Virus record (IMG/VR): IMGVR_UViG_2585427971_000010
DNA: 51,466 bases
Reading direction: 5' to 3' (one strand)
DNA from: a virus
Taxonomy: Duplodnaviria > Heunggongvirae > Uroviricota > Caudoviricetes
Shown here: in pieces, positions 3,630-8,990 of the stretch
Position numbering within the stretch: the first letter of the stretch is position 1
How the letters are laid out: every line of letters begins with the position of its first letter
Program-made: the position numbers and the translations under genes
Notes under the pieces: generated by a model
What the model saw: only the letters and a program-made list of their open reading frames with translations
The model's database searches: none
What the model was told of the DNA's origin: nothing

Positions 3630-3940
3630 TATTCACTCCAGTACTTTTCCGGGCGGGCAATACCCGGACCACATTCCACGGTGTATTCCACCAGGTCTAC
3701 GCCGAGGCGGGTCAGGTCAGCAAACCAGTCGCCAGAAGGTTTTTTCTCCAGATCAACCATTTTACGGTCAGCCAGATAATCCAGTTCGCGGCGCAGTTCC
3801 AGCGGTGTGGTGTCCGGGTAGATGGCACGGGACACATCCAGCAGCAGCGTCTCGCTGGCGGTGTAAGGGCGGGTCTTGTTCAGGGCAACCAGCAGACTCC
3901 AGCGCAGGGATTCGCGGCGTACCCGGGTAATATCGACCAT
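3629..3940 (-). CDS. hypothetical protein in Mu-like late operon
   Basis: 103-aa ORF packed tightly between the lysis and terminase genes, same strand. Confidence 0.45.
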   Translation of the reverse strand: MVDITRVRRESLRWSLLVALNKTRPYTASETLLLDVSRAIYPDTTPLELRRELDYLADRKMVDLEKKPSGDWFADLTRLGVDLVEYTVECGPGIARPEKYWSE

Positions 3941-4266
3941 TATTGACCTCCGGTATTGCGGTACTGCTGTACCACTTCCAGTTTGTTATAAAGCGCGTCC
4001 AGTTTGGCCTCAATGACTGTCTGGCCACGGATATAATCCTCTCGACGGACATAATTCAGCGGTAAATCCGCTTTAAATCGCATAAATTCTTTTTCCAGCT
4101 CGCCCCAGTTGGAGGCGGATTGTTGCAGGGCCTGTTCAAGGGAGGCGAATCGTGCCGCCTGGCGTTCTTCTGTTTTACTGAACAACCATTTGGCTAGCCC
4201 TCCCACAAACCCCATGAAGGTGAGCAGAAAACTCACCACCGTCCAGAATTCAACCTGCAGTGTCAT
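3940..4266 (-). CDS. small membrane protein (N-terminal TM helix plus coiled-coil), Mu-like late cluster
   Basis: 108 aa; hydrophobic N-terminus (FWTVVSFLLTFMGFVGGL); start overlaps upstream gene stop. Confidence 0.5.
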   Translation of the reverse strand: MTLQVEFWTVVSFLLTFMGFVGGLAKWLFSKTEERQAARFASLEQALQQSASNWGELEKEFMRFKADLPLNYVRREDYIRGQTVIEAKLDALYNKLEVVQQYRNTGGQ

Positions 4267-6120: not shown

Positions 6121-6597
6121 ATGACGCACACACTGAATCCGGTCATCACTGTCACTGTGTCCGGTCCTGTGGGCAGCGGTAAAAGTTACGTACTGGCGCG
6201 GATAGAAGAGATGGTGAAACAGGAACTCGGAAACAGCGTCATTGTCGATGCTGCTGACGTGGAGAATGAGCGCCGTATGAATGGCGAAGATCTGACGACC
6301 TGGCAGAAGCCACGGGGTGGCACAGTGATCAGGCTGGAGGAATACACGGGACAGGGCCTGTTGTCATACGGCGAGGAGCGTATCTGTCGGACGAATGAGC
6401 TGCTGGATGTTATATGCCCCACGGGCCGGCAACCCTGGATACTGCCCGATGCACTGCATGCCACCATTGCGGCACTGATGACAGTTTACGATCAGGAGCT
6501 GCTCATGAAGGAGTTACGTAAACTCACCGGTCAGCCAACAGAATGTTGTTCGTCTCCGAAGTACGGCAAACAGGAAAACGCCCCGGATAATCCTTAA
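6121..6597 (+). CDS. small P-loop NTPase-like protein, function unknown
   Basis: Walker A motif GPVGSGKS near N-terminus, then hydrophobic strand ending in acidic residues (VIVDAAD); good SD (AGGAGA); opposite strand to flanking operons. Confidence 0.55.
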   Translation: MTHTLNPVITVTVSGPVGSGKSYVLARIEEMVKQELGNSVIVDAADVENERRMNGEDLTTWQKPRGGTVIRLEEYTGQGLLSYGEERICRTNELLDVICPTGRQPWILPDALHATIAALMTVYDQELLMKELRKLTGQPTECCSSPKYGKQENAPDNP

Positions 6598-6634
6598 GAT
6601 ACCTCCTGAACAGAAACAGCCCTGAAGGGCTGCA

Positions 6635-7225
6635 CTAAAAAAAGAAGTGTATTATTGCCCAAACAGCTATAACGATGATTCCCAGCCCAAGAGCCGATTC
6701 TAACTTATCTTTGGCAGTCATTTTTACTGTTGTAGCGGGCGCAGGTAAGTCTTGCTGCTGTGGATTTTCTGTTAGTTGTTTACGAGAAGAAACATCGCCC
6801 CTGTTAGTTTGCTTCATGTTGATTACAGATGCGTTATGGGCATTATCAGCAGCAATTGACTGAAGTTTTACAAAAGTTTTTGAATCTGTTTTAGCCAGAA
6901 GTAACCTATTTCCCGTAAACATTGCCTTAAAAGTGATAGTTTTTTTCGTCTTGTCCGCCGCACCAAGCAAACCTCCAATGACCAACCCTGCACCACCAAA
7001 GATTAATCCACCAAGCAAACCTGCGCCTGCCGCCTTACCTATACGGCTTTCCTCTTCACTATCCGCAAGTTCAATCGATAAAAGCTCTTCTTTCAGATTT
7101 AATACAATATTTTCAGGAAAGCCTTGTTTTGGTTTTTTGGCAAACACGATGGTACCGAACCCCATGCTTGCCCACCCTTTAGGAAAACTTCCTGCGATAA
7201 CCTGAATCCCTGCCATGTTCATCAC
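6635..7225 (-). CDS. membrane protein with glycine-zipper TM segment and C-terminal TM helix
   Basis: AAGAGLLGGLIFGGAGLVIGGLLGAA segment; C-terminal LGLGIIVIAVWAIIHFFF; last gene of the repressor operon. Confidence 0.5.
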   Translation of the reverse strand: MMNMAGIQVIAGSFPKGWASMGFGTIVFAKKPKQGFPENIVLNLKEELLSIELADSEEESRIGKAAGAGLLGGLIFGGAGLVIGGLLGAADKTKKTITFKAMFTGNRLLLAKTDSKTFVKLQSIAADNAHNASVINMKQTNRGDVSSRKQLTENPQQQDLPAPATTVKMTAKDKLESALGLGIIVIAVWAIIHFFF

Positions 7226-7306
7226 CTTTTACATTAAAATTTCAGAACGCAGCATGATGCCGCCTTTGTCTTTTTTCTGATCCCATGGTAATTCAGCTGT
7301 TATTTT

Positions 7307-8293
7307 CTATTTAAGAATAAAACGGTATTTACTGTCAGGAGTGCTTTGCTGATCAAGTAGCAGTGAACGACATGGAGCAGTCAAAACCCGAGCATAACTA
7401 CCATCAGGGCTTATGTTAATGTAACAAACCTTGCCCTTAACACTATAATTTTCGGGGACGGATGCCTTTGCTGATACAGTAAATTTAAGGGTATGCCAGC
7501 CCGTTTTTTGCTTGTAGCTTGAAACCGAATGGAAATCATCTGAGTACTTATTTAACCCTGGAAACATGCTGCGCAGTGCGGGGATGGAATCTTCTATTAT
7601 TTTATCGTTGGTTTTAATGTTAAAAACGCTGGTTTCAGTAGAAGCTACTGCTTTGGCATTTCCCCATTTACCAGCGAACACAATCATTCCCACGAAAAAT
7701 ATTGCTACAAGAACTAACACTCCCCCCAACACTACTACATGAGGCTTCCGGCTTCTGGTTGGTACAGTTGCGACTGATTTTGCACCGCTTTCCGATGGAG
7801 GTGATAGAGTTTTACTCTCATCACGAATATTCAGCAGATCATCAAAATAACCAAACACAGCCTGCAACTGCTCTTTGTCTAGGCCTTTAAGATGGGTTGT
7901 ACCGAAATGCTTCAGACAGTATCTGTCACGGTCAAGACGATACCCAGGGTCAGTAAGCGCCATTATTTTGCTGACCAGAAGATTACAGTCCTTCATATTC
8001 TGGATCTGTTGTGCATATCTCTGAAGGATCTCAACCGCACCATGATAATCAGCCGCAGTCATTTCATTAACTGTTTTGGTATTAAGTTTCGTGTGGATCG
8101 TCATCCATAGCTCGCGCTTACTTTCCCCCAGATCAACCAATTCATCCATCAATCTGTGTAAATCGCGTTTTTGCAGCAACGAAATTGGTTGCTGGGCCGA
8201 AGGAAGTATGTCAGCAGAATAGTTATGAATGGTAACATCACCGCTGACAACGTTACCCACATCCCCGTTAACTGTTTGCTTCTCTTTACTCAT
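7307..8293 (-). CDS. bitopic membrane protein (cytoplasmic N-domain, one TM helix, periplasmic C-domain)
   Basis: 328 aa; TM HVVVLGGVLVLVAIFFVGMIVFAG; start overlaps repressor stop (ATGA); N-terminus shares a GDV-GNV-G-VTI motif with the repressor C-terminus. Confidence 0.55.
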   Translation of the reverse strand: MSKEKQTVNGDVGNVVSGDVTIHNYSADILPSAQQPISLLQKRDLHRLMDELVDLGESKRELWMTIHTKLNTKTVNEMTAADYHGAVEILQRYAQQIQNMKDCNLLVSKIMALTDPGYRLDRDRYCLKHFGTTHLKGLDKEQLQAVFGYFDDLLNIRDESKTLSPPSESGAKSVATVPTRSRKPHVVVLGGVLVLVAIFFVGMIVFAGKWGNAKAVASTETSVFNIKTNDKIIEDSIPALRSMFPGLNKYSDDFHSVSSYKQKTGWHTLKFTVSAKASVPENYSVKGKVCYINISPDGSYARVLTAPCRSLLLDQQSTPDSKYRFILK

Positions 8294-8751
8294 CTTCTCT
8301 TGGTATTTTTGTTCATTATTCCACCTGTTCCTATGGTTACGTTACCTTTGATAACATTCCCCAGAACATCTCCATGAATAACCTGTTCCGCCCGTTCTCT
8401 GGAGGAGCCAGTAGTCAAGGCCGACAAAACTGAACCTTTGACCTGTAATGGTGCCTGCCGGTAGTGCTGCAGTAACTCCATTTCATCACGTGATAAAGTT
8501 ATACCTGATGACTCCCCGGTAAGAATGAACTGTACATTGGCCCCAATTCTTGCAAAGGCTGCAAGTAACTCACCTCCGGGAACAGCAACCCCTCGTTCAT
8601 ATTTCCCCCACATTTCTCTTGAAACGCCACAAAGGGCTGCTACTTCAGCCTGCTTGAGTGATAACCGCGAACGCTCAGCTTTGAACCGCGACGCGCAAAG
8701 AGAATCAAAATTCACATAAACCTCATTGACAATGAGAACAATAGTTCTCAT
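8290..8751 (-). CDS. XRE-family HTH transcriptional repressor (candidate Mu c-like immunity repressor)
   Basis: HTH segment LSLKQAEVAALCGVSREMWGKYERG; divergent from the small regulator at 8802 as in Mu c/ner. Confidence 0.7.
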   Translation of the reverse strand: MRTIVLIVNEVYVNFDSLCASRFKAERSRLSLKQAEVAALCGVSREMWGKYERGVAVPGGELLAAFARIGANVQFILTGESSGITLSRDEMELLQHYRQAPLQVKGSVLSALTTGSSRERAEQVIHGDVLGNVIKGNVTIGTGGIMNKNTKRR

Positions 8752-8801
8752 AATCTATCACATATAAAACAAACATCATTGCATCAACAAAGGAGACAAC
8801 A
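8752..8801. promoter_or_regulatory. divergent promoter/operator region between repressor and Cro/Ner-like gene
   Basis: Short AT-rich intergenic region between divergently transcribed regulators. Inferred from arrangement only. Confidence 0.35.
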
Positions 8802-8990
8802 ATGACTTCCGAACAAGTTAAAAATCTCTTCCGTCAGCGTGGTATCACGTTTACCCGCTGGGCCGAAGAACACGGCTACAGCCGCAATGAGGTCTATCGT
8901 GTTCTCAATGGACAGACCAAAGCTCGTTACGGCAAAGCCCATGAAATTGCCGTAAAACTGGGATTAAAACCCACGTCAAATGCGGCATAA
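8802..8990 (+). CDS. small Cro/Ner-like DNA-binding regulator
   Basis: 62 aa, HTH-like (FTRWAEEHGYSRNEVYRVLNG); strong SD (AAGGAGA); positional equivalent of Mu ner. Confidence 0.6.
   Translation: MTSEQVKNLFRQRGITFTRWAEEHGYSRNEVYRVLNGQTKARYGKAHEIAVKLGLKPTSNAA

What the first reader, a model, noticed from the sequence alone, without database searches (positions are those of the whole stretch)
6635..8751. Repressor operon with two membrane proteins; repressor C-terminus and sensor N-terminus share a GDV-GNV-G-VTI motif
The XRE repressor ends …VIHGDVLGNVIKGNVTIGTGGIMNKNTKRR and the next gene (start overlapping its stop) begins MSKEKQTVNGDVGNVVSGDVTIHNYSA…; the motif also recurs at nucleotide level. 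The 328-aa protein is bitopic and is followed by a glycine-zipper membrane protein. A repressor co-transcribed with membrane proteins and sharing a terminal beta-strand-like motif suggests direct coupling, for example sequestration or a shared degron. Mu-family repressors are known to be controlled through their C-terminal tails.
Basis: partly seen in the sequence, partly recalled or inferred. Interest (0 to 1): 0.65.

Follow-up and report, generated by a model that had tools for sequence, protein, structure and literature searches.

The report
Prophage repressor paired to membrane protein
The repressor of an E. coli Mu-like prophage ends in a ~18-residue glycine/asparagine/valine-rich motif that is repeated at the start of the membrane protein encoded next to it. 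Across many temperate phages the two copies change together, so the two proteins almost certainly contact each other, in a way that resembles bacterial amyloid signalling pairs.

Summary
The repressor tail QVIHGDVLGNVIKGNVTI (window 8332-8385, minus strand) matches the partner N-terminus QTVNGDV-GNVVSGDVTI (8228-8278) at 11 of 17 positions, z 7.6 against shuffles.

In related prophages (Mu-like, P2-like and integrase-type; Gamma- and Betaproteobacteria) the repressor tails fall into several different motif classes. Each time, the co-transcribed membrane protein starts with the matching class. With 17 class representatives, 0 of 200,000 permutations reach the observed score. Pairs stay matched when one to four genes lie between them, and when the DNA-binding domain has been exchanged.

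Both motifs are predicted disordered in the monomers. They are G/N/V/I/Q-rich and sit at the very C- and N-termini, as in amyloid signalling motif pairs such as Bab/Agp BASS11.

The partner's cytoplasmic domain is homologous to the N-terminal domain of the flagellar regulator Flk (Pfam Flk_N). It is followed by one transmembrane helix and a periplasmic domain.

The 196-aa glycine-zipper gene is a variable accessory gene, not part of the module.

My best reading is that a membrane-anchored partner inactivates the repressor by homotypic beta co-assembly. That the two proteins interact is strongly inferred. The direction and the amyloid nature are not shown. I found no prior description in the papers searched.

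The parts
8290..8751 (-). XRE-family prophage repressor as annotated, 153 aa. The likely true start is the GTG at 8715, giving MNFDSL... as in homologues.
   Evidence: Pfam HTH_31/HTH_3. Transcribed divergently from the ner-like/transposase early operon. Homologues start at MNFDSL. GAGG lies 5 nt upstream of the GTG.
8518..8709 (-). HTH DNA-binding domain (residues 15-78), followed by two helices (residues 88-114, nt 8410-8490).
   Evidence: AF2 model with pLDDT above 90; Pfam match at residues 22-68.
8332..8385 (-). Repressor C-terminal motif QVIHGDVLGNVIKGNVTI (residues 123-140).
   Evidence: Disordered in the AF2 monomer, residues 122-153 with pLDDT below 50. Nearly invariant in homologues P0025-P0056.
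8293..8313 (-). Basic C-terminal end NKNTKRR. A K/R-rich end follows the motif in nearly all motif-bearing repressors.
   Evidence: tails end ...NKKNK...NENKK...GRKRK...GGKKKQ...KRRR.
7307..8293 (-). Partner: 328-aa bitopic membrane protein (phrog_10002). Its start codon overlaps the repressor stop (ATGA).
8228..8278 (-). Partner N-terminal motif QTVNGDVGNVVSGDVTI (residues 6-22).
   Evidence: At least 90% conserved across orthologues that are only 44-82% identical overall. Residues 1-28 have pLDDT of about 44.
7811..8206 (-). Cytoplasmic helical domain (residues 30-161), homologous to the N-terminal domain of the flagellar regulator Flk (Pfam PF27202 Flk_N).
7673..7738 (-). Single transmembrane helix (residues 186-207).
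   Evidence: Hydropathy scan and AF2 helix.
7310..7621 (-). C-terminal alpha/beta domain (residues 225-328), inferred periplasmic. Elsewhere it occurs as a separate lipoprotein gene.
   Evidence: AF2 pLDDT above 90. tblastn finds residues 197-327 as separate downstream ORFs in L054/55, L059 and L067/68; the L054 and L059 ORFs have lipobox-like starts.
6635..7225 (-). 196-aa glycine-zipper / C-terminal-TM protein (phrog_12025). Accessory cargo gene in the same transcription direction, not part of the conserved pair.
   Evidence: Found only in the E. coli loci that carry a 99.7-100% identical 328-aa gene, and absent from L045/46 and L050-55. Replaced by unrelated genes there.
6616..6633 (-). Terminator-like hairpin ending the leftward transcription unit.
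8726..8754 (+). Early promoter-like site (TTGACA-17-CATAAT). The perfect palindrome ATGAGAACAATAGTTCTCAT (8732-8751) lies in its spacer and is a candidate operator.

Best explanation
The repressor tail and the partner N-terminus form a matched pair of short beta-forming motifs. Through them, the prophage's XRE repressor is physically coupled to a membrane-anchored, Flk_N-domain protein made from the same transcript.

Proposed mechanism:
- In the lysogen both motifs are disordered and the repressor is free to bind its operator at the early promoter.
- A signal acts on the partner, either through its periplasmic domain or through its cytoplasmic Flk_N domain, and causes it to cluster.
- The clustered N-terminal motifs adopt a stacked, in-register beta fold, with one motif forming one rung.
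- This fold recruits and templates the identical-type tail of the repressor, as in amyloid signalling pairs.
- The repressor is pulled off the DNA to the membrane or into an assembly, and the early (ner/transposase) operon is derepressed.

Shown here: the motif pair, its strict co-variation, its terminal positions, its composition, its predicted disorder, and the domain make-up of the partner.

Inferred: that the two proteins bind each other (strong inference), that the fold is cross-beta, that information flows from the membrane protein to the repressor, and that the outcome is induction.
For: 1. Significance in the window: score 55, z 7.6, rank 1 of 59.

2. Covariation. In loci from genome and viral collections, repressors with G/N-rich tails are followed by a protein whose first ~25 residues carry the same motif class. 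Examples:
   - INVSGQGNRVAGRDYNENKK / DVSGRENRTAGRDFHEN
   - QIFNGDISGQFAGNQIIN / QEFNGTAQGQFSSRDIIN
   - VKIGGKGHRFALGDYHENK / IEITGQEHRIALGDYYEH
   - KQIFNGNIDGQVSAENIYNIG / EQHFNHTVGQVAANNIYNIY
   - AAGGVQVGYVGGSV / GSGGVQVGKVDGDV

3. Permutation tests. For 17 class representatives the cognate sum is 836 against 420 +/- 43, and 0 of 200,000 permutations reach it. Within one class, cognate identities are 197 against 172.9 +/- 4.9, reached by 2 of 100,000 permutations.

4. Repressors of the same family with helical tails have no matching neighbour.

5. The pairing survives separation. One gene lies between the pair in a P2-like prophage (L122), and four genes (2.7 kb) in L121.

6. The tail travels with the partner, not with the HTH domain. 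In P0046/L124 the HTH is about 40% identical, the tail about 92%, and the partner and synteny are the same.

7. The two copies are similar rather than complementary. This is what in-register parallel beta stacking requires (inference from known amyloid signalling pairs; 10.1101/2024.11.07.622273).

8. Motif cores are rich in G, N, V, I and Q and poor in L and P. This partly matches the bias reported for BASS motifs, which are also K-poor, whereas these cores hold 3-4% K. They lie 0-17 residues from the repressor C-terminus and usually 1-9 residues from the partner N-terminus, although 24-37 from the first start codon assigned in four loci.

9. Both motifs are disordered in AF2 monomers.

10. 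Partners are almost always membrane proteins, with variable cytoplasmic modules: Flk_N, a Zn ribbon, or others.

11. In the same repressor family the C-terminus is alternatively an S24 self-cleavage domain (P0092, P0093, P0102). The tail therefore occupies the place of an induction module.

12. The repressor sits opposite a strong early promoter with a perfect palindrome in its spacer.
Against: - There is no experimental or structural evidence of binding.
- Amyloid formation is untested, and the motifs (15-22 aa) are not shown to belong to any described BASS family.
- Co-expression of an anti-repressor with its repressor from one operon requires the partner to be silent by default, which is assumed here, not shown.
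- Many partners lack a periplasmic domain and a few are soluble, so 'membrane sensor' may not be general.
- Some relatives (Lonsdalea and Pseudomonas loci L006 and L016) have a partner with an internal motif but no matching repressor tail.
- The direction of signalling could be the reverse.
Confidence: 0.4

Rival explanations
1. Stoichiometric tethering without templating. The two motifs form a defined small beta-sheet heteromer. The partner then acts like a membrane-anchored anti-sigma factor, or like SinI acting on SinR. It holds a fraction of the repressor at the membrane, or breaks up repressor oligomers, and releases or captures it on a signal.
For: - The covariation evidence is the same.
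- The partner topology (N-in, one TM, C-terminal periplasmic domain) and its co-transcription with its target resemble the sigma-E/RseA arrangement (comparison from general knowledge).
- Flk itself is a tail-anchored regulator, shown genetically to hold the flagellar export apparatus in early mode and proposed to act through FlhA's cytoplasmic domain (PMC13344023).
- Translational coupling (ATGA overlap) suggests matched amounts of the two proteins.
Against: - Similarity rather than complementarity between the two motifs is more typical of in-register stacking than of a defined heterodimer interface.
- The G/N/V-rich, P/L-poor composition and the strictly terminal positions match amyloid signalling motifs.
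- None of this is decisive.
Confidence: 0.27
2. Reverse direction. The membrane protein is the output (a toxin, abortive-infection or exclusion effector) and the repressor tail keeps it in check or activates it. This would resemble a type II antitoxin with a disordered C-terminal neutralising tail, or the lambda cI-rexAB arrangement with physical coupling added.
For: - An XRE protein followed by an overlapping gene for a small membrane protein has the layout of a toxin-antitoxin pair.
- Several partners are short proteins with two TM helices (118-170 aa).
- The repressor shows weak similarity to HTH antitoxin models.
Against: - In described amyloid signalling pairs the protein with the C-terminal motif is the effector and the one with the N-terminal motif is the sensor (10.1101/2024.11.07.622273). 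Here the C-terminal motif is on the repressor.
- No PADLOC or toxin family matches the partner.
- The Flk_N domain is regulatory, not pore-forming.
- The HTH protein is clearly placed as the prophage immunity repressor.
- S24 domains replace the tail in relatives.
Confidence: 0.2
3. The motif is an independent signal read by a third party, such as a host protease degron or a localisation or secretion signal. It is present on both proteins, which do not touch each other.
For: - Terminal, disordered peptides are typical degrons.
- Mu repressor stability is known to depend on its C-terminal tail (general knowledge, not tested here).
Against: - Different motif classes coexist in one host species. 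E. coli carries both the GDVLGNVIKGNVTI and the GNRVAGRDY types.
- The classes still match strictly within each pair, including rare variants such as ALGDY in both members. A constant host reader would not produce this.
Confidence: 0.05
4. Chance resemblance of two low-complexity Gly/Asn/Val-rich segments.
For: The motifs are short and compositionally biased.
Against: - z = 7.6 against composition-preserving shuffles.
- 0 of 200,000 permutations across classes.
- Conservation far above the rest of either protein.
Confidence: 0.01

Closest known systems
Amyloid signalling motif pairs: bacterial BASS motifs (Bell/NLR pairs), the E. coli Bab/Agp BASS11 Abi system, and fungal HET-S/NWD2
   Same: - A ~20-residue motif is shared between the extreme C-terminus of one protein and the extreme N-terminus of a protein encoded nearby.
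- There are several motif classes, and the class matches within each pair.
- The composition is G/N/Q/V/I-rich and P/L-poor, with several glycines.
- The motifs are disordered in the soluble monomer.
- The pair is located in prophages.
   Different: - The C-terminal-motif protein is a DNA-binding XRE repressor, not a membrane-targeting Bell/HeLo cell-death domain.
- The N-terminal-motif protein is a small membrane protein (Flk_N domain, Zn ribbon or other), not an NLR/STAND or TPR receptor.
- Amyloid formation is untested.
- Identity with any numbered BASS family could not be checked, because no BASS11 sequence or profile was available.
SinR/SinI (and SlrR/SlrA) of Bacillus subtilis: an antirepressor that shares the repressor's oligomerisation segment
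   Same: An XRE-type repressor and a neighbouring gene product share a short homologous terminal segment through which they are thought to form heteromers (comparison from general knowledge).
   Different: - The Sin segment is helical, whereas here it is a G/N/V beta-type motif.
- The partner here is membrane-anchored and carries extra domains.
- The setting is a prophage immunity region.
[quoted passage not shown]
   Same: The cytoplasmic domain of the 328-aa protein is homologous to the Flk N-terminal domain (Pfam Flk_N; NCBIfam Flk model E 2.9e-12). Both proteins face the cytoplasm and are held in the membrane by a helix C-terminal to that domain.
   Different: - It scores 46.6 bits against an equivalog cut-off of 353.
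- Representative Flk proteins lack the N-terminal beta motif (P0230-P0239).
- The phage proteins are prophage-encoded, paired with a repressor, and here carry a periplasmic domain.
Membrane-anchored anti-sigma factors (RseA type), co-transcribed with their sigma factor
   Same: A bitopic N-in protein is co-transcribed with, and presumably binds, a transcription regulator through its cytoplasmic N-terminus, with a periplasmic C-terminal domain (topology; comparison from general knowledge).
   Different: There is no sequence or fold relation. The target is a repressor rather than a sigma factor. Recognition is by a shared short motif rather than by a folded anti-sigma domain.
lambda cI-rexA-rexB: a repressor operon that carries membrane-protein genes
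   Same: The immunity repressor is co-transcribed in the lysogen with genes for membrane proteins.
   Different: Rex proteins share no motif with cI, and no physical coupling to the repressor is known. Only the 196-aa accessory gene here fits this 'moron' pattern.

Membership tests
Amyloid signalling motif pair (BASS/FASS type) | A short (~20-25 aa) motif shared by the C-terminus of one protein and the N-terminus of another encoded by a neighbouring gene | tested here: met
   Window pair has 11 of 17 identical residues. There are 37 distinct matched pairs. Motifs lie 0-17 residues from the repressor C-terminus and mostly 1-9 residues from the partner N-terminus; four pairs are at 24-37 from the first assigned start codon.
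Amyloid signalling motif pair (BASS/FASS type) | Several motif families, with the family matching within each gene pair | tested here: met
   Permutation test on 17 class representatives: 0 of 200,000 reach the observed score. Within one class: 2 of 100,000.
Amyloid signalling motif pair (BASS/FASS type) | Composition enriched in G, N, Q, V, I and depleted in P, L, K, with beta propensity | tested here: inconclusive
   Motif cores hold G 13-17%, N 13%, V 9-12%, I 6-7%, Q 6%, L about 1%, P 0.1%, compared with the bias described in 10.1101/2020.01.06.895854. K, at 3-4%, is not clearly depleted. No beta-propensity predictor was run.
Amyloid signalling motif pair (BASS/FASS type) | The motif forms amyloid fibrils or prion-like foci, and one partner seeds the other | not testable with these tools
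   Needs peptides, GFP fusions or multimer modelling. Both motifs are disordered in monomer models, which is compatible with amyloid formation but not a test of it.
Amyloid signalling motif pair (BASS/FASS type) | The sensor is an oligomerising NLR/STAND/TPR receptor and the effector is a membrane-targeting cell-death domain (Bell/HeLo) | tested here: not met
   The C-terminal-motif protein is an XRE HTH repressor. The N-terminal-motif protein has a Flk_N domain plus a TM helix. Neither protein matches PADLOC models for these systems.
BASS11 specifically (Bab/Agp) | Sequence match to the BASS11 consensus | not testable with these tools
   No BASS11 sequence or profile is held. Only scattered residue identities are given in the text (I87-G88-S89-V90, Q92, D99, N100). 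No supplement is available.
Flk (flagella biosynthesis regulator) | Full-length match above the NCBIfam equivalog cut-off (353 bits) | tested here: not met
   46.6 bits, residues 19-147 only. True Flk proteins P0230 and P0236 score 428-461 bits.
Flk_N domain family (Pfam PF27202) | Significant match to the Flk N-terminal domain | tested here: met
   Precomputed PF27202 hits on P0001 and orthologues, named Flk_N. NCBIfam E 2.9e-12. A profile search links the family to Flk proteins.
Type II toxin-antitoxin pair with an XRE antitoxin | The downstream gene encodes a member of a known toxin family | tested here: not met
   No Pfam, NCBIfam or PADLOC toxin match for the 328-aa protein.
Type II toxin-antitoxin pair with an XRE antitoxin | A compact, overlapping two-gene operon in which the antitoxin carries a disordered C-terminal partner-binding tail | tested here: met
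   ATGA overlap. Tail disordered. This layout is shared with the favoured reading and does not discriminate.
LexA/CI-type SOS-inducible repressor | C-terminal S24 peptidase self-cleavage domain | tested here: not met
   Only HTH families hit the window repressor. Relatives P0092, P0093 and P0102 do carry PF00717.
SinR/SinI-type repressor/antirepressor | The shared segment is a helical-hook oligomerisation domain | tested here: not met
   The shared segment is Gly/Asn/Val-rich and is not predicted helical.

The most novel reading that the evidence does not exclude
A temperate-phage lysis-lysogeny switch that runs on prion-like templating. A membrane-anchored sensor nucleates a cross-beta fold at its N-terminus. 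That fold converts the matching C-terminal tail of the prophage repressor, inactivating old and newly made repressor irreversibly and committing the cell to induction. This would add transcription factors to the effectors of amyloid signalling. It would also show that motif-class diversity serves as an 'immunity specificity' code that keeps co-resident prophages insulated from one another.
Probability: 0.3. Interest if true: 0.92.

Novelty: new variant of a known kind. Interest (0 to 1): 0.8.

Why it matters
Many temperate phages of Proteobacteria have XRE repressors without a self-cleavage domain, and how they are induced is mostly unknown. This finding points to a specific, compact and widespread candidate control module. 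It is a ~20-residue tail on the repressor plus a co-transcribed membrane protein with the same motif, present in Mu-like, P2-like and integrase-type prophages.

If the pair works by beta co-assembly, it extends amyloid signalling from cell-death effectors to gene regulation. So far that mechanism has been shown in bacteria only for the Bab/Agp abortive-infection system.

It would also give a directly testable system in E. coli, using peptides, GFP foci, beta-breaker mutants, motif swaps and induction assays.

Two further gains follow:
- It assigns a first functional context to phage-encoded Flk_N-domain proteins, which are currently annotated as hypothetical.
- It offers a way to predict which repressor talks to which partner in genomes with several prophages.

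Tried and rejected
- **Fold searches of the 328-aa model.**
  - Foldseek against PDB and BFVD gave nothing with E below 0.001.
  - The afdb50 library was unavailable.
  - The periplasmic domain therefore remains without a known fold.
- **Family scans.** Pfam (local copy), PHROGs and PADLOC scans gave no functional name for the partner or for the 196-aa protein beyond phrog numbers.
- **PF27202.** A search of the papers for 'PF27202' found nothing. The name Flk_N came later, from a context look-up.
- **Literature.** Searches for amyloid signalling combined with HTH, repressor, prophage or antirepressor terms found no description of this pairing. The library is incomplete, so this is absence in the held papers only.
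- **DNA-level repeat.** I considered and rejected a DNA-level repeat or recent duplication as the source of the similarity, because synonymous positions differ.
- **Gene-overlap artefact.** I rejected this because pairs separated by 1-4 genes still match.
- **L034.** I set aside its high score as an artefact of overlapping frames in a repetitive stretch.
- **The 196-aa gene.** I considered it as a third component and rejected it on its distribution.
Full report
**Setting**

The window is an E. coli transposable (Mu/BcepMu-like) prophage. The 2.5-kb region is 100% identical in the 20 E. coli chromosomes listed, and 97 of 5,426 genomes hold at least 80% of it.

In an annotated copy, the XRE gene lies between the lysis/late genes and a rightward early operon. 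That operon holds a ner-like HTH gene, an IclR-like HTH gene, a DUF3102 gene, the transposase, the B-like ATPase, gam and mor. The right end of the prophage abuts a truncated gspL gene.

On the minus strand there are three consecutive ORFs:
- the XRE repressor, 8290-8751;
- a 328-aa protein, 7307-8293;
- a 196-aa protein, 6635-7225.

A terminator-like hairpin follows at 6633-6616. On the plus strand a strong promoter-like site (8726-8754, 11 of 12 matches) faces the ner-like gene. Its spacer holds the perfect palindrome ATGAGAACAATAGTTCTCAT, a candidate operator. The XRE protein is therefore placed as the immunity repressor. This is an inference from position and family.

**The observation**

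- The repressor ends ...QVIHGDVLGNVIKGNVTIGTGGIMNKNTKRR.
- The next protein begins MSKEKQTVNGDVGNVVSGDVTIHNY.
- The two genes overlap as ATGA.
- Eleven of 17 aligned residues are identical.
- The local score of 55 lies 7.6 standard deviations above shuffled tails. It is the best of 59 possible partners.
- At the DNA level only 4 of the 11 identical residues share a third base. The likeness is therefore maintained at the protein level and is not a repeat or a recent duplication.

**Conservation**

Across orthologues of the 328-aa protein that are 44-82% identical overall, positions 5-22 are at least 90% conserved. This is well above the 62% mean column identity.

In one repressor variant (P0046) the HTH region is only about 40% identical while the last ~50 residues are about 92% identical. 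It sits in the same prophage type, next to an orthologous partner. The tail therefore travels with the partner gene, not with the DNA-binding specificity.

**Covariation**

This is the main result.

Homologues of the repressor carry different C-terminal tails. I fetched 39 loci from species genomes and 80 from viral contigs and read the ORF after each repressor. Whenever the tail is G/N-rich, the downstream protein starts with the same kind of motif.

| Locus / source | Repressor tail | Partner N-terminus |
|---|---|---|
| L005, Enterobacter | INVSGQGNRVAGRDYNENKK | DVSGRENRTAGRDFHEN |
| L002, Pectobacterium | QIFNGDISGQFAGNQIIN | QEFNGTAQGQFSSRDIIN |
| L013, Pseudomonas | VGQYIHGSVNQSGVTFNV | VGQVAEGDINNYGININL |
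| L101 | VKIGGKGHRFALGDYHENK | IEITGQEHRIALGDYYEH |
| L081 | KQIFNGNIDGQVSAENIYNIG | EQHFNHTVGQVAANNIYNIY |
| L119 | AAGGVQVGYVGGSV | GSGGVQVGKVDGDV |
| L030, Acidovorax | NSGMGAIQIGSI | NSGSGAVQMGNV |

- Thirty-seven distinct matched pairs were aligned.
- For nearly all of the G/N-rich-tail repressors that have a matching neighbour, cognate scores are 4.6 to 13 standard deviations above shuffles. The weakest visible pairs (L004, L013, L026) reach only 2.4-3.7.
- Repressors with helical tails give z between about -1 and 3.3, with no visible motif match.
- With one representative per class, the cognate sum is 836 against 420 +/- 43 for permuted partners. None of 200,000 permutations reaches it.
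- Within the large GNRVAGRDY class, cognate pairs are still more alike than permuted ones: 197 against 172.9 +/- 4.9, reached by 2 of 100,000 permutations.
- The pairing does not depend on adjacency. In a P2-like prophage one gene separates VVHGDVGQTVKGNVTI from IIHGDVGIVAEGDVIQ. In L121 the tail QVAGDLGQNVTGNVNI lies 2.7 kb and four genes upstream of QVAGDVGMVSHGTVTI.
- One Pseudomonas locus (L013) has two motif-bearing membrane proteins behind one repressor.
- Different classes occur in the same host species. E. coli has both the class in this window and the GNRVAGRDY class. This argues against a common host reader such as a protease.

**Anatomy of the two proteins**

Repressor, AF2 model:
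- HTH domain, residues 15-78;
- two helices, residues 88-114;
- a tail with pLDDT below 50 from residue 122.

Partner, AF2 model:
- residues 1-28 disordered;
- a confident helical domain, residues 30-160;
- a low-confidence linker;
- one transmembrane helix, residues 186-207;
- a confident alpha/beta domain, residues 225-328.

The helical domain is Pfam Flk_N (PF27202). It matches the NCBIfam Flk model at E 2.9e-12, far below the equivalog threshold. Flk is a cytoplasm-facing, C-terminally anchored regulator that holds the flagellar export apparatus in its early mode (PMC13344023).

A profile search of 1.84 billion representative proteins found only 112 clusters. Nearly all members with the helical domain, other than true Flk proteins, begin with a G/N/V-rich motif of one class or another.

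Other partners replace Flk_N with a CPxC...CxxC zinc ribbon or with unrelated segments. Almost all keep one or two transmembrane helices, and a few are soluble.

The C-terminal domain of the window protein occurs elsewhere as a separate downstream gene. Two of these (L054, L059) have lipoprotein-type signal sequences, which supports a periplasmic location and a modular origin.

Fold searches named nothing convincing. Part of Flk_N resembles the Red-beta C-terminal three-helix bundle.

**The third gene**

The 196-aa glycine-zipper protein is found only in the loci whose 328-aa gene is 99.7-100% identical to the window's. It is absent from loci with a 95%-identical partner and from all more distant orthologous operons, where unrelated genes occupy the slot. 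It is accessory cargo, not part of the pair.

**Interpretation**

The covariation means the two motifs must recognise each other. They stay alike rather than complementary, including rare shared variants such as ALGDY. Together with their length (about one rung of a beta-solenoid), their composition, their terminal positions and their predicted disorder, this is the signature of amyloid signalling motif pairs. In bacteria these are described for Bell/NLR pairs (10.1101/2020.01.06.895854). They have been shown to work in the E. coli Bab/Agp abortive-infection system, where a ~20-residue motif at the C-terminus of the effector and the N-terminus of the sensor templates an amyloid fold (10.1101/2024.11.07.622273).

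By that analogy the C-terminal-motif protein, here the repressor, is the effector that gets converted. The N-terminal-motif protein, here the membrane protein, is the sensor.

One more observation points the same way. In the same repressor family the C-terminus is sometimes an S24 self-cleavage domain, which suggests the tail occupies the position of an induction module.

I therefore favour a signal-dependent anti-repressor that captures or templates the repressor at the membrane and so derepresses the early operon.

What is shown:
- the pair and its co-evolution;
- the domain make-up of both proteins.

What is inferred:
- binding between the two proteins;
- the cross-beta nature of the contact;
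- the direction of signalling;
- the outcome.

Two rivals fit the same data and are scored accordingly. One is a stoichiometric anti-sigma-like or SinI-like tether. The other has the repressor tail controlling a membrane effector. A shared degron and chance are disfavoured or excluded.

**Novelty**

The searches of the held papers found no description of an HTH repressor carrying such a motif, nor of phage Flk_N proteins paired with repressors. The proteins are annotated as hypothetical. In the one deposited phage genome found to carry a pair (Escherichia phage 520873), the partner is unannotated and interrupted by two frameshifts.

I rate this a new variant of a known kind: terminal-motif pairing as in amyloid signalling, with a new effector class and a new sensor class.

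Noticed in passing
window 8732-8751 (plus strand), within promoter-like site 8726-8754: The perfect 8+4+8 palindrome ATGAGAACAATAGTTCTCAT lies in the spacer between the -35 and -10 hexamers of the early promoter facing the ner-like gene. It is a candidate operator for the XRE repressor. A half-site-like copy lies at 8900-8910.
   Followed up: partly
window 8713-8751 (minus strand): The annotated ATG start of the repressor (8751) lies inside the candidate operator. Most homologues start at MNFDSL, which corresponds to the GTG at 8715, preceded by GAGG at a spacing of 5 nt. The real protein is probably 141 aa.
   Followed up: partly
window 6635-7225 (minus strand); L045, L050, L052, L124: The slot after the repressor-partner pair is a variable cargo position. 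It holds the 196-aa glycine-zipper protein here, and unrelated proteins of 203, 94, 254 or 250 aa in orthologous prophages.
   Followed up: yes
window 6121-6597 (plus strand): A convergent 158-aa P-loop protein (phrog_3787, annotated 'ABC transporter ATPase') lies between the repressor operon and the holin gene. In L124 an 82-aa gene takes its place.
   Followed up: no
L054/L055 4530-5057; L059 4091-5053; L067/L068 ~3877-4255: The C-terminal (periplasmic) domain of the 328-aa protein occurs as a separate gene downstream of shorter partners. The L054 and L059 ORFs have lipoprotein-type starts. In L054/55 it is a second copy next to a fused one.
   Followed up: partly
L013 4429-5019 and 5732-6124: In this Pseudomonas locus, two different membrane proteins carrying the same N-terminal motif class (DFHGGVGQVAEGDINNYG and SFNGDVGQVSGGDIHNYG) follow a single repressor with the matching tail.
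   Followed up: partly
L006-L010, L016, L018, L020, L022 (Lonsdalea, Pseudomonas); L033, L036: Related repressors have a longer helical C-terminal domain and no G/N-rich tail. They are followed by membrane or soluble proteins whose G/N/V motif is internal, after an N-terminal helix (for example ITISVGGDNPGSIHVGSVVNIN). No matching motif was found elsewhere in L006, L016 and L033, the three of these loci that were scanned. This is unexplained.
   Followed up: partly
L123 (Escherichia phage 520873, NC_049344.1), locus 1819-2896: This Peduoviridae phage has a GNRIAGRDY-tailed repressor. Its matching Flk_N partner is split over three reading frames and is not annotated. It is either a pseudogene or a sequencing error.
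   Followed up: partly
L001 19732-20501 (about window 17230 onward): The right end of the prophage abuts a truncated gspL (type II secretion) gene, as expected for insertion of a transposable phage into a host gene.
   Followed up: no
proteins P0092, P0093, P0102: Close relatives of the repressor's HTH domain carry an S24 peptidase domain instead of the short tail. The family therefore alternates between at least three kinds of C-terminus: S24 domain, G/N-rich motif, or plain helix.
   Followed up: partly
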